Source of the DNA: Acidobacteriota bacterium
GTDB lineage: Bacteria > Acidobacteriota > Vicinamibacteria > Vicinamibacterales > UBA2999
Assembly (NCBI GenBank): GCA_963169195.1
Contig: CAUJDN010000054.1
Location: 28,386-92,385, forward strand
Direction of reading: 5' to 3'
DNA: 64,000 nt
Shown: piece by piece, positions 53,475 through 60,070 of the stretch
Position numbering within the stretch: position 1 is the stretch's first letter
Layout: each line of letters begins with the position of its first letter
Notes under the pieces: model-generated
Databases searched by the model: none
What the model saw: the letters and a program-made list of their open reading frames with translations, nothing else
What the model was told of the DNA's origin: nothing
Translations under genes and position numbers: made by a program

Positions 53475-56400
53475 TCAGCCCACGGGGACGCCTGCGCGCG
53501 GGGCGGCCGTACGCAGCAGGCCCGAGAAGACCGCCTGCAGGAGGGCCGTGTCGTCGGCGAGGACGTCGAAGACATCTCCCCGGGTGAATCGCAGCGCGGT
53601 GCCCGGCGTGGCGCCGGTCAGTGTGCCCGCGATGGGCTGGCCGCCCAGCGTCTGGTAGAGCCCGATCACGTCGCCCGGATCGGCGGTCGAGGTCGTGCCG
53701 TCCGGCGCCGTGATCGTGACCGACCCGGTGAGCACGACGATCATCGACCGGTCGGCATGTCCCTCGAGCGGATCCACGCCCGGCCTCAGGCTGATCGATT
53801 CCGCGCTCGCCGCCAGCCGCAGCAACTGGGCGCCGGTGGCCCTGGCCAGCAGCGGGCTGGACTGCAGCAGCAGGACGCGGTCCACGGGCTGGAGCCCGTC
53901 GGCCACCTTCTTCAGGACCTCGGAGGTGAGCTCGCCCCGCAGGAGCACCTGCGACTGGAACACCGCGTGGCTGGAGATGAGCCAGCGCATGATGCCCTCG
54001 GCCAGTTCCGTGTTCTCGGCCAGGAGCGACAGGAAGGCCTCGGTGGCGATGGACAGGCAGATCGTCGGCTCCATCGACCGCATCGCTCGCCCCATGGGGC
54101 GGCCCTCGAGGACCTCCTCGAACGCCAGGGGCGACGGCGGCAGGATCTCGGTGCTGCTGCCATGCTCGTCGATGGCTTCGACACGGCCGTCGAGGACGAA
54201 CTGCAGCGTGGCGGGCGCCGTGCCCCGCTCGTAGATGCTCCGCGAGCCCTCGTGACGCACCTGCTCGCCGAGGGCGGCGATGCGGAACAGCTCGTCGACC
54301 GACGCGAAGTCGAAGAGCGGGAGGCGTCGCAGCCTGTCCACGAGCACGACGGCCGGCAGCGGCTCCTGCCAGATCTGCCGGCGGCGCTCGGGGGGCATGC
54401 GCGAGGCCGCCAGGGCCCAGGACGCGGCCTCGAAGACGTACCAGTCGCGCGGATCGCGGTGCTGCAGCACGTGCTCGAGGTCGCCGGCGAGCGACCACAT
54501 CCGGCGTTCCTCGACCATGTGAATCGCCGCCGCGGACACCACCTGGTTCTCGTCGTGCACGAGCTGCGCGACGGTGTCCTCGACGTCGCGCGTGCGCGTC
54601 CTGTAGATGACGTTGCCCTTGCGCACGCGCTCCGGCTCCGGCATGTCCTCGATGAGCAGCATCACGCGGCGGCGCAGGTCGCCGGAGAGCAGGTTGTCGA
54701 GGTACTCGATGGCCCCCGATCGGCGGCGCGCGTCGCCGATCTCGAGCGTGGCCGCCACGGCGGCGACGTCCGACGGGGGATGCACCAGCCCGAGCAGCTG
54801 GAACACGCGGTCCATGGCGCGCCGGCGCCTCTCCTCGAGCACCCGTGCGAGCAGGCAGGCGGGAGAGAGGTCGCCGGTGACGAAGAGGTTGGTGTACAGC
54901 GTGAGGGCGCTGAAGGCGCGCCCGGCTTCCGCCAGCACGTGCCGCTCGACCGCGGCCCGGTCGATGACCAGCGACGGGTGATCGCGCCGGGTCCGCTCGA
55001 GGGCCGTGATGGCCTTGTAGCGCAGGAACCCGTCCGAGGCGTCGAGCGCGCCGACGAGCGTCTGTACCGAGGCGGCGCACGGGATGCGCGCCAGCGTGGC
55101 GGGCACGTGGCGGCGCACCCAGATGTCCTCGTCCCGGTCGGCCATGAAGTAGGCCAGGGTGGGCACCACGGCCTCGCCGTATCCGACCAGGACCTTCCGG
55201 GCCGGCTCCTTCAGCCGGCGATTCCGCATCAGCGTGACCAGCGTGGGCACGTAGAGGAAGTCGTCGCCGCCGATGGTGCCGGCGCTGTTGATGGCGGCAC
55301 GCGCGACGAAGTAGTTGTCGTCGTACATCAGCGGCACGAGCAGCGGCCGGAACCGCGGATTCGCCACGAGCCCGAGAGCACGGGCGACCTGTCGCCGGAG
55401 CTCGCTGGCCGACGCGCGCGTATCGGCGGCCAGCCGGCGGAACGTGTCCTCCGCGCGGTCCACGTCCGACCGCATCTCGCTCGACGCCAGGGCCGCGGCT
55501 GCCGTCACGACCAGGTTGAGGTCGCGGTGATCCAGGTACGGCCGCATCACGTCCACCGCCGCCTCGCCGCGGAGCGTGGCGAGCGCCCGTGCGGCGGCCA
55601 GGCGGACCTCGCCGTCCTCGTCGCCGAGCGCGCGCTCGACGCCGGGCAGCCAGCGCTCGCCGGCCTCGGGCGTGGTGTAGCGCGCCAGCCGCAGCGCGCG
55701 CGCGCGCACTTCGGGCGAGTCGTGGCGGAGCAGGAGCGGCGTGACCAGCTGGCGCTTGTCCAGCGCCTCGAGCATGTCGATGGCGTAGAGCACGCGGCGG
55801 GGCTCGGGGTGCGAGAGCTCGGTGAGCAGCGTCTCGATGGTGGACAGGTCCGCGGTGTCCAGACGGACCTCCGACGGCCGCACGTCCTGCTGCTCCAGGC
55901 TCTTCCTGAACGCCTTCAGGTACTCCCGGCGCGCGTTCAGCGCGAACGCGCCCCAGATGGCCATCATCGTCACGCTGGCGTAGCTCAGCTGGCGCCAGCC
56001 GAGATCCAGGCCCCAGTCCTGCACGAGCACCAGCAGCAGCAGCGCGCCCAGGCCTTTCGCGACGCGGTCCACGGTGACGTCGATGAACGGCTTCGCCTGG
56101 TACTTGATGTCGACCGGGAGCGGCAGGAACAGGATCTCGCGCGTGGTCTTGTCCACCGTGTAGCGCAGCGACGTGTCCATGATGCGCGCCAGCCCCGCCG
56201 TCCAGAGCGCGCCGTTCATCAGCATCAGCAGGCCGGTGACGCTGTCCACGACCGGCAGGATCATCAGGGCGAACCCGATGCCGAGGAAGCGGTGGATGCG
56301 GCTGGTCAGCACGACCTGCACGACGAAGCCGATGATGGAGAGGTAGGCCGTGATCTGCGCCAGGAAGGCCGTCACCGCATCCACGTTCTGGGCCCCGCGC

Positions 56401-60070: not shown

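What the first reader, a model, noticed from the sequence alone, without database searches (positions are those of the whole stretch)
53475..60070. Divergent pair of ATP/ADP-translocase-like (TLC) transporters fused to HEAT repeats; one adds two cNMP-binding-like domains
TLC/Npt carriers are best known from obligate intracellular bacteria and plastids, where they import host nucleotides. Here a presumably free-living, GC-rich organism encodes two paralogues head-to-head across 119 bp. Each has the TLC signature (FWTLAN..AKR.FG..G.GA.LGG) followed by ~450 aa of HEAT-like repeats. The longer one (1234 aa) ends in two CAP_ED-like beta-rolls, the first retaining an FEE...RAMRS motif. This architecture would couple a nucleotide-type carrier to a large cytoplasmic scaffold and a cyclic-nucleotide-type ligand sensor. 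To my knowledge HEAT-fused TLC homologues are annotated but functionally uncharacterised, and the cNMP-gated variant and the paired arrangement are worth examining as one unit.
Basis: partly seen in the sequence, partly recalled or inferred. Interest (0 to 1): 0.6.

Follow-up and report, generated by a model that had tools for sequence, protein, structure and literature searches.

The report
Paired HEAT-fused nucleotide-transporter-like membrane carriers
A soil acidobacterium (Vicinamibacterales) carries two head-to-head genes for membrane carriers distantly related to the ATP/ADP importers of intracellular parasites, each fused to a long HEAT-repeat arm and one also to two cyclic-nucleotide-type sensor domains; this fusion family was described in 2017 and is still of unknown function, so the locus is a real but not new kind of thing.

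Summary
Gene A (53475-57179, minus strand, 1234 aa) has the architecture TLC + HEAT + two cNMP-binding-type domains. Gene B (57299-60070, plus strand, 923 aa) has TLC + HEAT. They are divergent across 119 bp and collinear paralogues at 28% identity. Pfam, PDB sequence search and AlphaFold/Foldseek all place both membrane domains closest to the solved NTT ATP/ADP translocators.

The architecture is not new. Major, Embley and Williams (2017) described NTT-HEAT and NTT-HEAT-cNBD fusions, including duplicated cNBDs, as a widespread monophyletic clade of unknown function. I found no later functional study.

New here:
- The divergent A/B pair is kept in 57 of 80 informative Vicinamibacteria-type genomes.
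- The intergenic region carries two conserved back-to-back -10-like boxes.
- Neither protein keeps the NTT charged tetrad. A has Q/L/E/K. B has D/G/A/D, with Asp at both lysine positions.
- cNBD2 lacks the cNMP-contacting Glu and Arg. cNBD1 keeps the Glu, but its Arg is present in only 50 of 119 orthologues.

Most likely these are co-expressed, regulated secondary carriers that are not ATP/ADP exchangers. cNMP gating is unproven. It is a new member of a known, uncharacterised kind, of moderate to low interest.

The parts
53475..57179 (-). Gene A: 1234-aa TLC-HEAT-cNBD-cNBD protein (GTG start at 57179, stop included)
   Evidence: ORF, translation, Pfam. Orthologues of 1214-1293 aa with the same architecture. 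Called identically in the public record.
55890..57179 (-). A membrane domain (residues 1-430): 12-helix TLC/MFS fold
   Evidence: Pfam TLC 44.2 bits and MFS_1 42.1 bits. The AF2 model has 12 long helices. Foldseek best hits are AtNTT1 9j3m (E 1.5e-8, TMt 0.68) and CpNTT1 9j3n (TMt 0.70). This is the most conserved domain among orthologues, at 72% mean identity.
54372..55847 (-). A HEAT-repeat solenoid (about residues 445-936)
   Evidence: HEAT_2 94.8 bits in 4 stretches. alphaRep/HEAT hits in the PDB. About 30 short helices in the AF2 model with pLDDT mostly 85-95.
53952..54353 (-). A cNBD1 (about residues 943-1076). PBC-like segment A-F-E-E-V-L-E-G-R-P-M-G-R-A-M-R-S at 1019-1035
   Evidence: Pfam cNMP_binding, 2 stretches. 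Beta-roll in the AF2 model. Foldseek matches tandem CNB-A/B of PKG and PKA-R. PBC analysis.
53514..53924 (-). A cNBD2 (about residues 1086-1222). Degenerate PBC I-G-L-Y-Q-T-L-G-G-Q-P-I-A-G-T
   Evidence: Best Pfam cNMP_binding stretch is 1139-1209. Alignment to the MloK1 CNBD shows GE->GL and PR->PI. G1173 is invariant but no orthologue has Glu or Arg there.
57180..57298 (.). 119-bp divergent intergenic region (shared promoter region)
   Evidence: Sequence. Equivalent gaps of 46-261 bp (median 92) in 58 related loci. No Rfam family, sigma-70 consensus or terminator.
57188..57193 (-). -10-like box TAAGAT, 8 nt upstream of A's GTG (A probably leaderless or nearly so)
   Evidence: Sequence. TAAG[AC]T is present in 31 of 59 paired intergenic regions against 1.1 expected from shuffles.
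57270..57275 (+). -10-like box TAAACT, 23 nt upstream of B's ATG
   Evidence: Sequence. Its reverse complement AGT[TGC]TAC occurs in 35 of 59 paired intergenic regions against 0.6 expected.
57299..60070 (+). Gene B: 923-aa TLC-HEAT protein (ATG 57299, stop included)
   Evidence: ORF, translation, 100% identical annotated protein P0121, Pfam.
57299..58591 (+). B membrane domain (residues 1-431): 12-helix TLC/MFS fold. Asp56 and Asp369 sit at the two NTT lysine positions
   Evidence: Pfam TLC 46.9 bits. PDB phmmer hit to AtNTT1 9j3j at 47.6-51 bits. AF2 pLDDT 82, pTM 0.69. The Foldseek top five are all NTT structures. Tetrad mapping.
58604..60049 (+). B HEAT-repeat solenoid (about residues 436-917)
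   Evidence: HEAT_2 80.8 bits, HEAT 34.9 bits. AF2 helices 436-917. PP2A-A and alphaRep fold hits.

Best explanation
A and B are two anciently diverged members of the NTT-HEAT fusion clade. Each is a 12-helix, TLC-type (MFS-fold) secondary carrier of the cytoplasmic membrane. TM12 runs directly into a cytoplasmic HEAT solenoid of about 480 residues.

The two genes are transcribed divergently from one compact promoter region with two back-to-back -10-like boxes, so they are probably expressed together.

The HEAT arm most likely acts as a cytoplasmic regulatory or protein-docking scaffold beneath the carrier. In A, the C-terminal tandem CNB-type domains, arranged as in PKA-R/PKG, most likely act as a small-ligand allosteric switch on transport. 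SOS1 and SLC9C1 are transporters with C-terminal CNBD modules of this kind.

The substrate is probably a nucleotide-like or phosphorylated solute for A, which keeps the Glu and Lys equivalent to AtNTT1 E385 and K527. It is probably not classical ATP/ADP counter-exchange. B, with Asp at both lysine positions, must bind something different or play a partner role.

Shown: domain architecture, fold, nearest structural relatives, loss of tetrad residues, state of the PBC motifs, pair conservation, conserved intergenic boxes. Inferred: cytoplasmic location of HEAT and cNBD (from 12-TM MFS topology), co-expression, allosteric regulation, substrate class.
For: Architecture and fold:
- Pfam.
- AF2 models with pLDDT about 82.
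- Foldseek top hits are AtNTT1 and CpNTT1 at E 1e-8 to 2e-9, against about 1e-5 for generic MFS proteins such as VMAT, SV2A and LacY.
- The only membrane-protein hits in a PDB sequence search are the NTT structures 9j3j and 9j3n.

Clade membership:
- Published description of NTT-HEAT(-cNBD) fusions.
- 12,948 representative clusters match A. The best 150 fall into collinear length classes of about 920, 1050-1130 and 1210-1260 aa.

Not a canonical exchanger:
- TIGR00769 scores 44 bits against a cut-off of 387.
- The tetrad K155/E245/E385/K527 is Q58/L121/E250/K375 in A and D56/G120/A246/D369 in B. Each state is conserved in 30-31 of 31 orthologues.
- Across other NTT-HEAT representatives only the acidic third position and usually the basic fourth position are kept.

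Sensor module:
- Two beta-rolls match tandem CNB-A/B of PKG and PKA-R over about 280 columns. The matches include the cAMP-independent, nucleoside-binding trypanosome PKA-R, and the CNBD-bearing transporters SLC9C1 and SOS1.

Pairing:
- A B-type gene lies immediately upstream and divergent in 57 of 80 informative loci, with A identity 47-79%.
- Reciprocally, three of three B homologues examined sit next to an A-type gene.
- Intergenic boxes are enriched 30- to 60-fold over shuffles.

The membrane domain is the most conserved part of A, at 72%. This argues that it is functional.
Against: - No transport, binding or expression data exist for any member of this clade. Substrate and regulation are inferred.
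- A scores almost as well on generic MFS_1 as on TLC.
- The AtNTT1 sequence used for tetrad mapping was recalled from memory. It is verified only for residues about 238-590 by the HMMER printout and, for the K155 position, by the Chlamydia chain. Numbering was fixed by a consistent +1 offset.
- I could not map the substrate contacts seen in the 2025 cryo-EM structures, because that paper is not in the library.
- Pair conservation is confined to one bacterial class, where the B-side neighbours (M1 peptidase and a 328-aa unknown) are also syntenic. Part of it may be plain vertical inheritance.
- 22 loci have A without B. One (L022) has only a B remnant. Unpaired A genes are interspersed with paired ones. 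A does not strictly need B in cis.
- The conserved boxes were counted in related sequences, which inflates the enrichment.
- Domain packing in AF2 (pTM 0.59-0.69) was not inspected at coordinate level.
Confidence: 0.55

Rival explanations
1. One reading: cAMP/cGMP-gated nucleotide carriers. A imports or exchanges nucleotides, and cyclic-nucleotide binding to its C-terminal domains opens or closes it.
For: - Pfam cNMP_binding is above its cut-off (46.7 vs 27.5 bits) in two stretches.
- The fold matches cNMP-bound PKG and PKA-R tandems.
- cNBD1 of A has a Glu (E1021/E1022) and an Arg (R1031) in a PBC-like segment.
- Close relatives read F-E-E-I-L-E-G-H-P-M-R-S-T-V-R-A, which resembles F-G-E-L-A-L-x4-P-R-S-A-T-V.
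- Major et al. proposed the same idea.
Against: - cNBD2 has neither the Glu nor the Arg in any of 119 orthologues.
- In cNBD1 the PBC Gly is replaced (F/E). Two extra conserved acidic residues (E1021 in 110 of 119, E1025 in 119 of 119) sit in the cassette.
- The Arg is present in only 50 of 119 orthologues, and in A it is displaced by one position.
- A regex for a canonical GE..R[ST]A cassette finds none at the PBC positions in 118 orthologues or 30 more distant cNBD-bearing representatives.
- The cNBDs are the least conserved domains, at 53-57%.
- Trypanosome PKA-R, a top fold hit, shows that such tandems can bind non-cyclic ligands.
Confidence: 0.25
2. Canonical energy or nucleotide import: A and/or B are ordinary ATP/ADP antiporters like Rickettsia Tlc1, Chlamydia Npt1 or plastid NTT1, used to scavenge external ATP.
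For: - Source annotations read 'AAA family ATP:ADP antiporter' and 'Npt1/Npt2 family nucleotide transporter'.
- The nearest solved structures are NTTs.
- The TLC signature motif and several basic residues (TM1 K/R pair, K363, K375 in A) are kept.
Against: - TIGR00769 scores 44 bits against a 387-bit cut-off.
- Sequence identity to the NTT structures is about 16-19%.
- The charged tetrad is incomplete in A and absent in B, with charge reversal at both lysines.
- K527 is reported as invariant in ATP/ADP transporters.
- The host lineage is free-living, with 1-5 Mb contigs and ordinary biosynthetic genes in the window.
Confidence: 0.1
3. Non-transporting membrane receptors or scaffolds ('transceptors'). 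The TLC domain only anchors or senses, and the HEAT arm recruits cytoplasmic partners. B in particular is a degenerate partner of A.
For: - B lacks all four tetrad residues, including the acidic third position that almost all other NTT-HEAT representatives keep.
- The HEAT region is long and well conserved, at 67%.
- HEAT repeats are typical protein-protein interaction modules.
Against: - The membrane domain is the most conserved part of A.
- Many polar and charged intramembrane and loop residues are invariant across both A and B families (Q129, W131, N135, R141, D329, R333, Y334, D337, K338, E342, K357, D361, R366 in B numbering). This is what is expected of a working carrier.
- Both AF2 models show an intact 12-helix MFS fold.
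Confidence: 0.15
4. The pairing is incidental: two paralogues that happen to be neighbours by descent, with no functional coupling.
For: - All 80 related loci come from one class (Vicinamibacteria-type MAGs).
- The B-side neighbours are also syntenic in 24-33 loci.
- 22 loci have A without B, and B has decayed in L022.
- Paired and unpaired A genes do not differ in tetrad or PBC state.
Against: - Head-to-head adjacency with a short gap (median 92 bp) persists down to 47% A identity and about 37-40% B identity. Over the same range the A-side neighbours are not conserved; unk284, the lectin-like gene and PQQ hit only 1-2 loci.
- The two -10-like boxes and, in the 50-55-bp class, their fixed spacing of about 25 bp are conserved.
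Confidence: 0.25

Closest known systems
NTT-HEAT and NTT-HEAT-cNBD fusion proteins (Major, Embley & Williams 2017, Genome Biol Evol 9:480; PMC5381601)
   Same: Same domain order: N-terminal NTT/TLC (PF03219), then HEAT (PF13646/PF02985), then cNBD (PF00027). The paper also describes a duplicated cNBD in oomycetes and Bacilli. The proteins are found in free-living bacteria, and Acidobacteria are listed in its Table 1. Function is unknown.
   Different: The paper does not describe a divergent NTT-HEAT / NTT-HEAT-cNBD2 gene pair, the Vicinamibacteria lineage, the state of the charged tetrad or the degenerate PBCs. It describes NTT-HEAT followed by a separate cNBD gene in an operon, which is a different arrangement.
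Canonical NTT ATP/ADP translocators (AtNTT1, PDB 9j3j/9j3l/9j3m; Chlamydia pneumoniae NTT1, 9j3n/9j3o; TIGR00769; TC 2.A.12)
   Same: 12-helix MFS-type fold. They are the best structural and sequence match in the PDB. They share the TLC signature FW.[FL]AN...EAK[KR].[FY]..G.GA and the RYS..D...E..Y.P / K..ID motifs.
   Different: Only 16-19% identity. They lack HEAT and cNBD extensions. TIGR00769 scores far below its cut-off. The K155/E245/E385/K527 tetrad is incomplete in A and absent in B. Several NTT loops are missing.
Transporters with C-terminal CNBD-type regulatory modules: plant SOS1 (8iwo, 7y3e) and sperm SLC9C1 (8pd2 and others)
   Same: A membrane carrier followed by a large cytoplasmic helical region and a CNB-fold domain that regulates it. 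They were recovered as fold matches to A. The SOS1 CNBD-like domain is regulatory without being a classical cNMP sensor; this last point is from my own knowledge.
   Different: Their membrane domains are CPA/NhaA-fold Na+/H+ exchangers, not MFS/TLC. Their helical regions are not HEAT solenoids. They have a single CNBD. The global TM-scores are low (0.10-0.13), so the match is analogy rather than homology of the whole protein.
Tandem CNB-A/CNB-B of PKA regulatory subunits and PKG, including the cAMP-independent trypanosome PKA-R (6flo, 6h4g, 6hyq)
   Same: Two consecutive CNB beta-rolls align over about 275-300 columns at E 2e-8 to 5e-7. The trypanosome proteins show that a tandem with altered PBCs can bind nucleosides instead of cAMP.
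   Different: 13-17% identity. In A the tandem is appended to a carrier and there is no kinase partner. The PBC of cNBD2 has lost both key residues.

Membership tests
Pfam TLC (PF03219) / MFS clan | Score above the TLC gathering threshold | tested here: met
   A scores 44.2 bits and B 46.9 bits against a cut-off of 21. A also passes MFS_1 (42.1 vs 33.4). B does not (26.4).
Canonical NTT / AAA family ATP:ADP antiporters (TIGR00769, TC 2.A.12 core) | Full-length match above the curated TIGR00769 cut-off | tested here: not met
   44.0 and 44.4 bits against a cut-off of 387.2.
Canonical NTT / AAA family ATP:ADP antiporters | 12-helix fold closest to solved NTT structures | tested here: met
   The Foldseek top hits are 9j3j/l/m and 9j3n/o with TMt 0.58-0.70, and E-values about 1000-fold better than other MFS proteins.
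Canonical NTT / AAA family ATP:ADP antiporters | Conserved intramembrane charged tetrad (AtNTT1 K155, E245, E385, K527) | tested here: not met
   A is Q58/L121/E250/K375. B is D56/G120/A246/D369. Both states are conserved in orthologues. K527 is described as invariant in ATP/ADP transporters. Caveat: the AtNTT1 N-terminal sequence was recalled from memory and only partly verified.
Canonical NTT / AAA family ATP:ADP antiporters | Nucleotide counter-exchange or H+/NTP symport activity | not testable with these tools
   Needs uptake assays in E. coli or proteoliposomes.
NTT-HEAT(-cNBD) fusion clade (Major et al. 2017) | TLC domain followed C-terminally by HEAT repeats in one polypeptide | tested here: met
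   Pfam TLC + HEAT_2/HEAT in both proteins. In the AF2 models a continuous helix runs from TM12 into the solenoid.
NTT-HEAT(-cNBD) fusion clade (Major et al. 2017) | cNBD (PF00027) fused at the C-terminus (three-domain variant; duplicated in some lineages) | tested here: met
   A has cNMP_binding at 46.7 bits in 2 stretches, and two beta-rolls in the model. B lacks it and is the two-domain variant.
NTT-HEAT(-cNBD) fusion clade (Major et al. 2017) | TLC domain groups with other fusion proteins in a phylogeny that includes canonical NTTs | tested here: inconclusive
   No tree was built, because canonical NTT sequences could not be fetched. Indirect support: all 150 best representative matches are collinear TLC-HEAT(-cNBD) proteins, and they share the [YFLQ]-x-[DE]-[KR] tetrad state rather than K-E-E-K.
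Functional cyclic-nucleotide-binding domains (CAP_ED / PF00027) | CNB beta-roll fold with flanking helices | tested here: met
   AF2 strands in model numbering are 958-1031 and 1113-1185, with pLDDT about 71-94. Foldseek matches PKG and PKA-R tandems.
Functional cyclic-nucleotide-binding domains (CAP_ED / PF00027) | Phosphate-binding cassette with G-E ... R-[ST]-A, in cNBD1 | tested here: inconclusive
   The Glu is present in 119 of 119 orthologues. The Gly is replaced. The Arg is present in A but offset by one position, and in only 50 of 119 orthologues.
Functional cyclic-nucleotide-binding domains (CAP_ED / PF00027) | Phosphate-binding cassette with G-E ... R-[ST]-A, in cNBD2 | tested here: not met
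   G1173 is invariant, but the Glu position is M/I/L/V and the Arg position is F/L/I/M/V in all orthologues. Against MloK1 the changes are GE->GL and PR->PI.
Functional cyclic-nucleotide-binding domains (CAP_ED / PF00027) | Measured cAMP or cGMP binding | not testable with these tools
   Needs ITC, DSF or equilibrium dialysis with purified A(940-1234).

The most novel reading that the evidence does not exclude
A and B form one functional two-carrier module specific to Vicinamibacteria. They are co-transcribed from an overlapping bidirectional promoter and possibly associate through their HEAT arms. A keeps the Lys/Glu of the NTT site. B has the charge-reversed site (Asp56/Asp369) and moves a different, perhaps cationic or counter-, substrate, or modulates A. 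The tandem CNB domains sense a non-cyclic ligand such as a nucleoside, a nucleotide or another metabolite. Showing this would give the first function and regulatory logic for the very large, uncharacterised NTT-HEAT family of free-living bacteria.
Probability: 0.15. Interest if true: 0.6.

Novelty: new member of a known kind. Interest (0 to 1): 0.33.

Why it matters
NTT/TLC carriers are usually read as a hallmark of energy parasitism. The HEAT-fused clade is very large: 12,948 representative clusters match A, 2,278 of them at E<=1e-30. It occurs in free-living bacteria and has no known function.

This locus adds three usable facts:
- A conserved natural pairing of a two-domain and a four-domain member.
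- Automatic names such as 'ATP:ADP antiporter' are not justified by the substrate-site residues.
- The 'cNMP-binding' domains are largely non-canonical.

These facts sharpen what should be assayed: substrates other than ATP/ADP, ligands other than cAMP/cGMP, and A together with B. They do not reveal a new kind of system.

Tried and rejected
- Rfam scan of the intergenic region: only a sub-threshold gntR-DTE match (20.9 vs 63.6 bits), rejected.
- Sigma-70 and terminator consensus scan over 53200-60400: nothing found.
- Pfam and NCBIfam on the flanking unknown ORFs (61335-62321, 60263-60796, 52358-53212): no significant family.
- Literature searches for functional work on NTT-HEAT, by terms and by papers citing Major et al.: no functional study found.
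- The paper for the 2025 NTT cryo-EM structures is not in the library, so structure-derived contact residues could not be used.
- Foldseek against afdb50 was unavailable.
- A regex for a canonical PBC found only off-target matches.
- A crude hydropathy TM count was uninformative and was replaced by AF2 secondary structure.
- I tested whether unpaired A-type genes form a separate clade or differ in key residues. They do not.
- I considered a recent tandem duplication as the origin of the pair and rejected it. A and B are only 28% identical. B is no closer (34% or less) to any of the other TLC-HEAT proteins retrieved as A's best matches.
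Full report
**1. What is in the sequence**

The window is about 71% GC throughout. In the stated interval there are two long ORFs whose frames have third-position GC of 0.92-0.93, the signature of real genes in this genome.

- Gene A is 53475-57179 on the minus strand (GTG start, 1234 aa).
- Gene B is on the plus strand and ends at 60070. 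The longest ORF starts at GTG 57227, but ATG 57299 gives a 923-aa product that is 100% identical in sequence and length to an NCBI-annotated protein (P0121, 'HEAT repeat domain-containing protein [Acidobacteria bacterium]').
- The public record, GCA_020853475.1 contig JADYYW010000150.1, calls exactly these two genes 119 bp apart.

**2. Domain content**

Pfam results:

| Family | A | B |
|---|---|---|
| TLC (cut-off 21) | 44.2 bits | 46.9 bits |
| MFS_1 (cut-off 33.4) | 42.1 bits | 26.4 bits, below cut-off |
| HEAT_2 | 94.8 bits, 4 stretches | 80.8 bits |
| HEAT | 26.1 bits | 34.9 bits |
| cNMP_binding | 46.7 bits, 2 stretches | none |

A and B align collinearly over all 923 residues of B at 28% identity, E 3e-69. 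They are paralogues with the same TLC + HEAT body, and A carries about 300 extra C-terminal residues. No third copy is in the window.

**3. Fold**

- AlphaFold2 on family alignments gave good models. B has mean pLDDT 82.1 and pTM 0.69. A (residues 15-1214) has pLDDT 81.8 and pTM 0.59.
- Each model has 12 long helices. The twelfth continues into a run of about 30 short helices, the HEAT solenoid. A then has two beta-roll domains with flanking helices.
- Foldseek against the PDB puts the 2025 structures of Arabidopsis NTT1 and Chlamydia pneumoniae NTT1 on top for both proteins (E 2e-9 to 9e-8, target TM-score 0.58-0.70). Generic MFS proteins follow at about 1e-5, and PP2A-A/alphaRep match the HEAT part.
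- In a sequence search of the PDB, the only membrane proteins hit are those same NTTs.

For A it is only narrowly passed at the Pfam level. It is clearly passed by the structure-based and PDB evidence.

**4. It is a known architecture**

Major, Embley and Williams (2017) surveyed NTT proteins (PMC5381601). Their main points:

- NTT-HEAT fusions form a monophyletic clade that is broadly distributed in bacteria.
- Some are followed by a separate cNBD gene, and in others the cNBD is fused (NTT-HEAT-cNBD).
- Oomycetes and some Bacilli have a duplicated cNBD.
- All occur in free-living organisms, and their function is unknown.
- They also suggested cAMP-dependent tuning of ATP uptake.

Searches by term and among 22 citing papers found no later functional work.

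The family is very large. A matches 12,948 50%-identity cluster representatives at E<=1e-3 and 2,278 at E<=1e-30. The best 150 fall into three length classes: about 920 aa (TLC-HEAT), about 1050-1130 aa (one cNBD) and about 1210-1260 aa (two cNBDs). Close homologues come from Vicinamibacterales and Acidobacteriota MAGs. They are variously named 'MFS transporter', 'AAA family ATP:ADP antiporter', 'Npt1/Npt2 family nucleotide transporter' or 'HEAT repeat domain-containing protein'.

**5. Are they nucleotide exchangers?**

NCBIfam's NTP/NDP exchange model TIGR00769 scores only 44 bits against a curated cut-off of 387.

The four intramembrane charged residues shown by mutagenesis to matter in AtNTT1 are K155, E245, E385 and K527 (Trentmann et al. 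2000, from my own knowledge). [quoted passage not shown]

I mapped these positions by alignment:

| AtNTT1 | A | B |
|---|---|---|
| K155 | Q58 | D56 |
| E245 | L121 | G120 |
| E385 | E250 | A246 |
| K527 | K375 | D369 |

Each state is conserved in 30-31 of 31 sampled orthologues. All four B positions lie inside predicted TM helices 2, 4, 7 and 11.

In 93 more distant NTT-HEAT representatives the pattern is typically [Y/F/L]-[S/A/T/L]-[D/E]-[K/R]. In 81 A-type genes from genomes the third position is acidic and the fourth basic in all but one.

So the clade as a whole has lost two of the four residues. A is typical of the clade. B is atypical: it has Asp at both lysine positions and no acid at the third.

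Caveats:
- The AtNTT1 sequence was recalled from memory. Residues about 238-590 are confirmed by the HMMER printout of chain 9j3j. The K155 position is confirmed against the Chlamydia chain ('aipfiKfw' vs B 'dlpfaDiv'). Numbering was anchored by a consistent +1 offset that hits K, E, E, K.
- The cryo-EM paper is not in the library, so the structural contact list could not be checked.

The shared TLC motifs and many invariant polar residues are kept in both families. The membrane domain is the most conserved part of A, at 72% mean identity among 118 orthologues. I therefore read both as working carriers whose substrate is not established and is unlikely to be handled as in ATP/ADP exchangers.

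**6. Are the C-terminal domains cNMP sensors?**

The fold is right. The two domains match the tandem CNB-A/B of PKG and PKA regulatory subunits over about 280 columns. The key residues are a different matter.

- **cNBD2.** The cassette reads I-G-[M/I/L]-Y-E-T-L-G-G-x-P-[F/L/I]. The Gly is invariant. The cNMP-contacting Glu and Arg are hydrophobic in all 119 family members, and against MloK1 the changes are GE->GL and PR->PI.
- **cNBD1.** The cassette is A-F-E-E-V-L-E-G-R-P-M-G-R-A-M-R-S in A, and F-E-E-I-L-E-G-H-P-M-R-S-T-V-R-A in close relatives. A Glu is always present. The Gly is replaced. Two additional acidic residues are conserved. The Arg is present in only 50 of 119 orthologues and sits one position later in A.
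- No canonical GE..R[ST]A cassette occurs at these positions in 118 orthologues or 30 more distant cNBD-bearing representatives.
- The cNBDs are the least conserved domains, at 57% and 53%, and the linker between them is at 41%.
- Among the top fold matches are the cAMP-independent trypanosome PKA-R subunits that bind nucleosides. SOS1 and SLC9C1, carriers regulated by C-terminal CNB-fold modules, also appear.

I conclude that A has a CNB-type ligand or allosteric module. cAMP/cGMP gating is possible through cNBD1 only, and it is not supported by conservation.

**7. The pair**

- A scan of one genome per species returned 80 loci, essentially all Vicinamibacteria or Acidobacteriota MAGs, with A-type genes at 47-79% identity.
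- A B-type gene lies immediately upstream on the opposite strand in 57 of 80 informative loci. Of these, 55 are complete as far as the flank allows and 2 are cut by contig ends. One further locus (L022) has only a 202-residue remnant, and 22 have none.
- Gaps are 46-261 bp, median 92.
- Three of three B homologues looked up from the other side are next to an A-type gene. At least 15 A/B hit pairs share the same longest-contig length.
- Unpaired A genes are interspersed among paired ones and do not differ in tetrad or PBC state. Some genomes have one paired and one unpaired A. B has therefore been lost, or A duplicated, several times.
- Caveat: the B-side neighbours (an M1 peptidase and a 328-aa protein with no Pfam match) are also syntenic in 24-33 loci. 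Part of the signal is ordinary vertical synteny. The A-side neighbours are not conserved.

**8. The intergenic region**

There is no Rfam family, sigma-70 consensus or terminator. Across 59 paired regions two short boxes recur:

- AGT[TGC]TAC near B, which is the reverse complement of a TAAACT-type -10. It occurs in 35 of 59 regions against 0.6 in shuffles.
- TAAG[AC]T near A. It occurs in 31 of 59 regions against 1.1 in shuffles.

In the 50-55-bp class the two boxes are a fixed spacing of about 25 bp apart.

In the window they are TAAACT at 57270-57275, 23 nt before B's ATG, and TAAGAT at 57188-57193 on the minus strand, 8 nt before A's GTG. This suggests back-to-back promoters and a leaderless or near-leaderless A transcript. 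It is inference from sequence, and the relatedness of the loci inflates the counts.

**9. Verdict**

The architecture and pairing are right. The claims of 'nucleotide carrier' and 'cNMP-gated' go beyond the evidence, and the novelty is overstated because the architecture was published in 2017.
- Best explanation (confidence about 0.55): two co-expressed, regulated secondary carriers of the NTT-HEAT clade. Each has a cytoplasmic HEAT scaffold, and A has a CNB-type allosteric module. They do not act as classical ATP/ADP exchangers.
- Novelty: a new member of a known, uncharacterised kind.
- Interest: moderate to low.
- The unexplained charge reversal in B and the conserved pairing are the most useful leads for experiments.

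Noticed in passing
window 57180-57298; loci L001-L082 intergenic regions: Two conserved back-to-back -10-like boxes: TAAACT-type pointing to B and TAAG[AC]T pointing to A. The A-side box is only about 7-10 nt from the start codon, suggesting a leaderless A mRNA. In the 50-55-bp gap class the boxes are a fixed spacing of about 25 bp apart.
   Followed up: partly
window 61335-62321 (-) and 62346-63977 (-): A 328-aa protein with no Pfam or NCBIfam match and an M1-family peptidase are syntenic with B's 3' end in 33 and 24 related loci respectively. In L073 and L080 the 328-aa gene sits directly upstream of A with no B between them.
   Followed up: partly
window 60071-61334 (ORF 60263-60796, minus strand): About 1.2 kb lies between B and the 328-aa gene that related loci lack. 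Its 177-aa ORF is called as a gene in the public record but has no homologue in any of the 82 loci and no family match. It may be a lineage-specific insertion.
   Followed up: partly
window 46131-48417 (+); L083 and L084 1.2-4.3 kb; L002 17.9-21.0 kb: An OmpR-type response regulator, a HAMP-HisKA histidine kinase and, in relatives, an LTXXQ/Metal_resist (CpxP/Spy-like) protein recur near A's 3' end. In L083 and L084 the kinase gene overlaps A's 3' end convergently. This may be an envelope-stress-type module kept in synteny. No functional link was tested.
   Followed up: no
L022 (VFZG01000024.1), upstream of A at about 5340-5942: Only about 200 residues of a B-type gene remain next to an intact A, with the 328-aa gene moved up against it. 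This looks like a decayed B copy. The MAG is labelled Acidimicrobiia although the locus is 57-63% identical to the Vicinamibacterales genes.
   Followed up: partly
L013 (CAYUAX010000058.1), L025 (CAYJPQ010000044.1): Two MAGs labelled 'uncultured Bifidobacteriaceae' carry the A/B pair at about 60% identity to this window and nearly identical to Vicinamibacterales loci. The taxon labels are probably binning or labelling errors.
   Followed up: no
window 27228-29825 (+) and 8804-12412 (+): Two large ORFs with strong coding signal. The 865-aa one has no Pfam match at E<=1e-5. The 1202-aa one has only a weak Pyr_redox_2 match covering about a third of the protein.
   Followed up: no
L002 7171-9991: In this 77%-identical relative the gene caller split the B orthologue into a 627-aa HEAT protein and a 310-aa opposite-strand ORF. 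tblastn finds B residues 294-923 there. This is either a frameshift or pseudogene, or a calling error.
   Followed up: no
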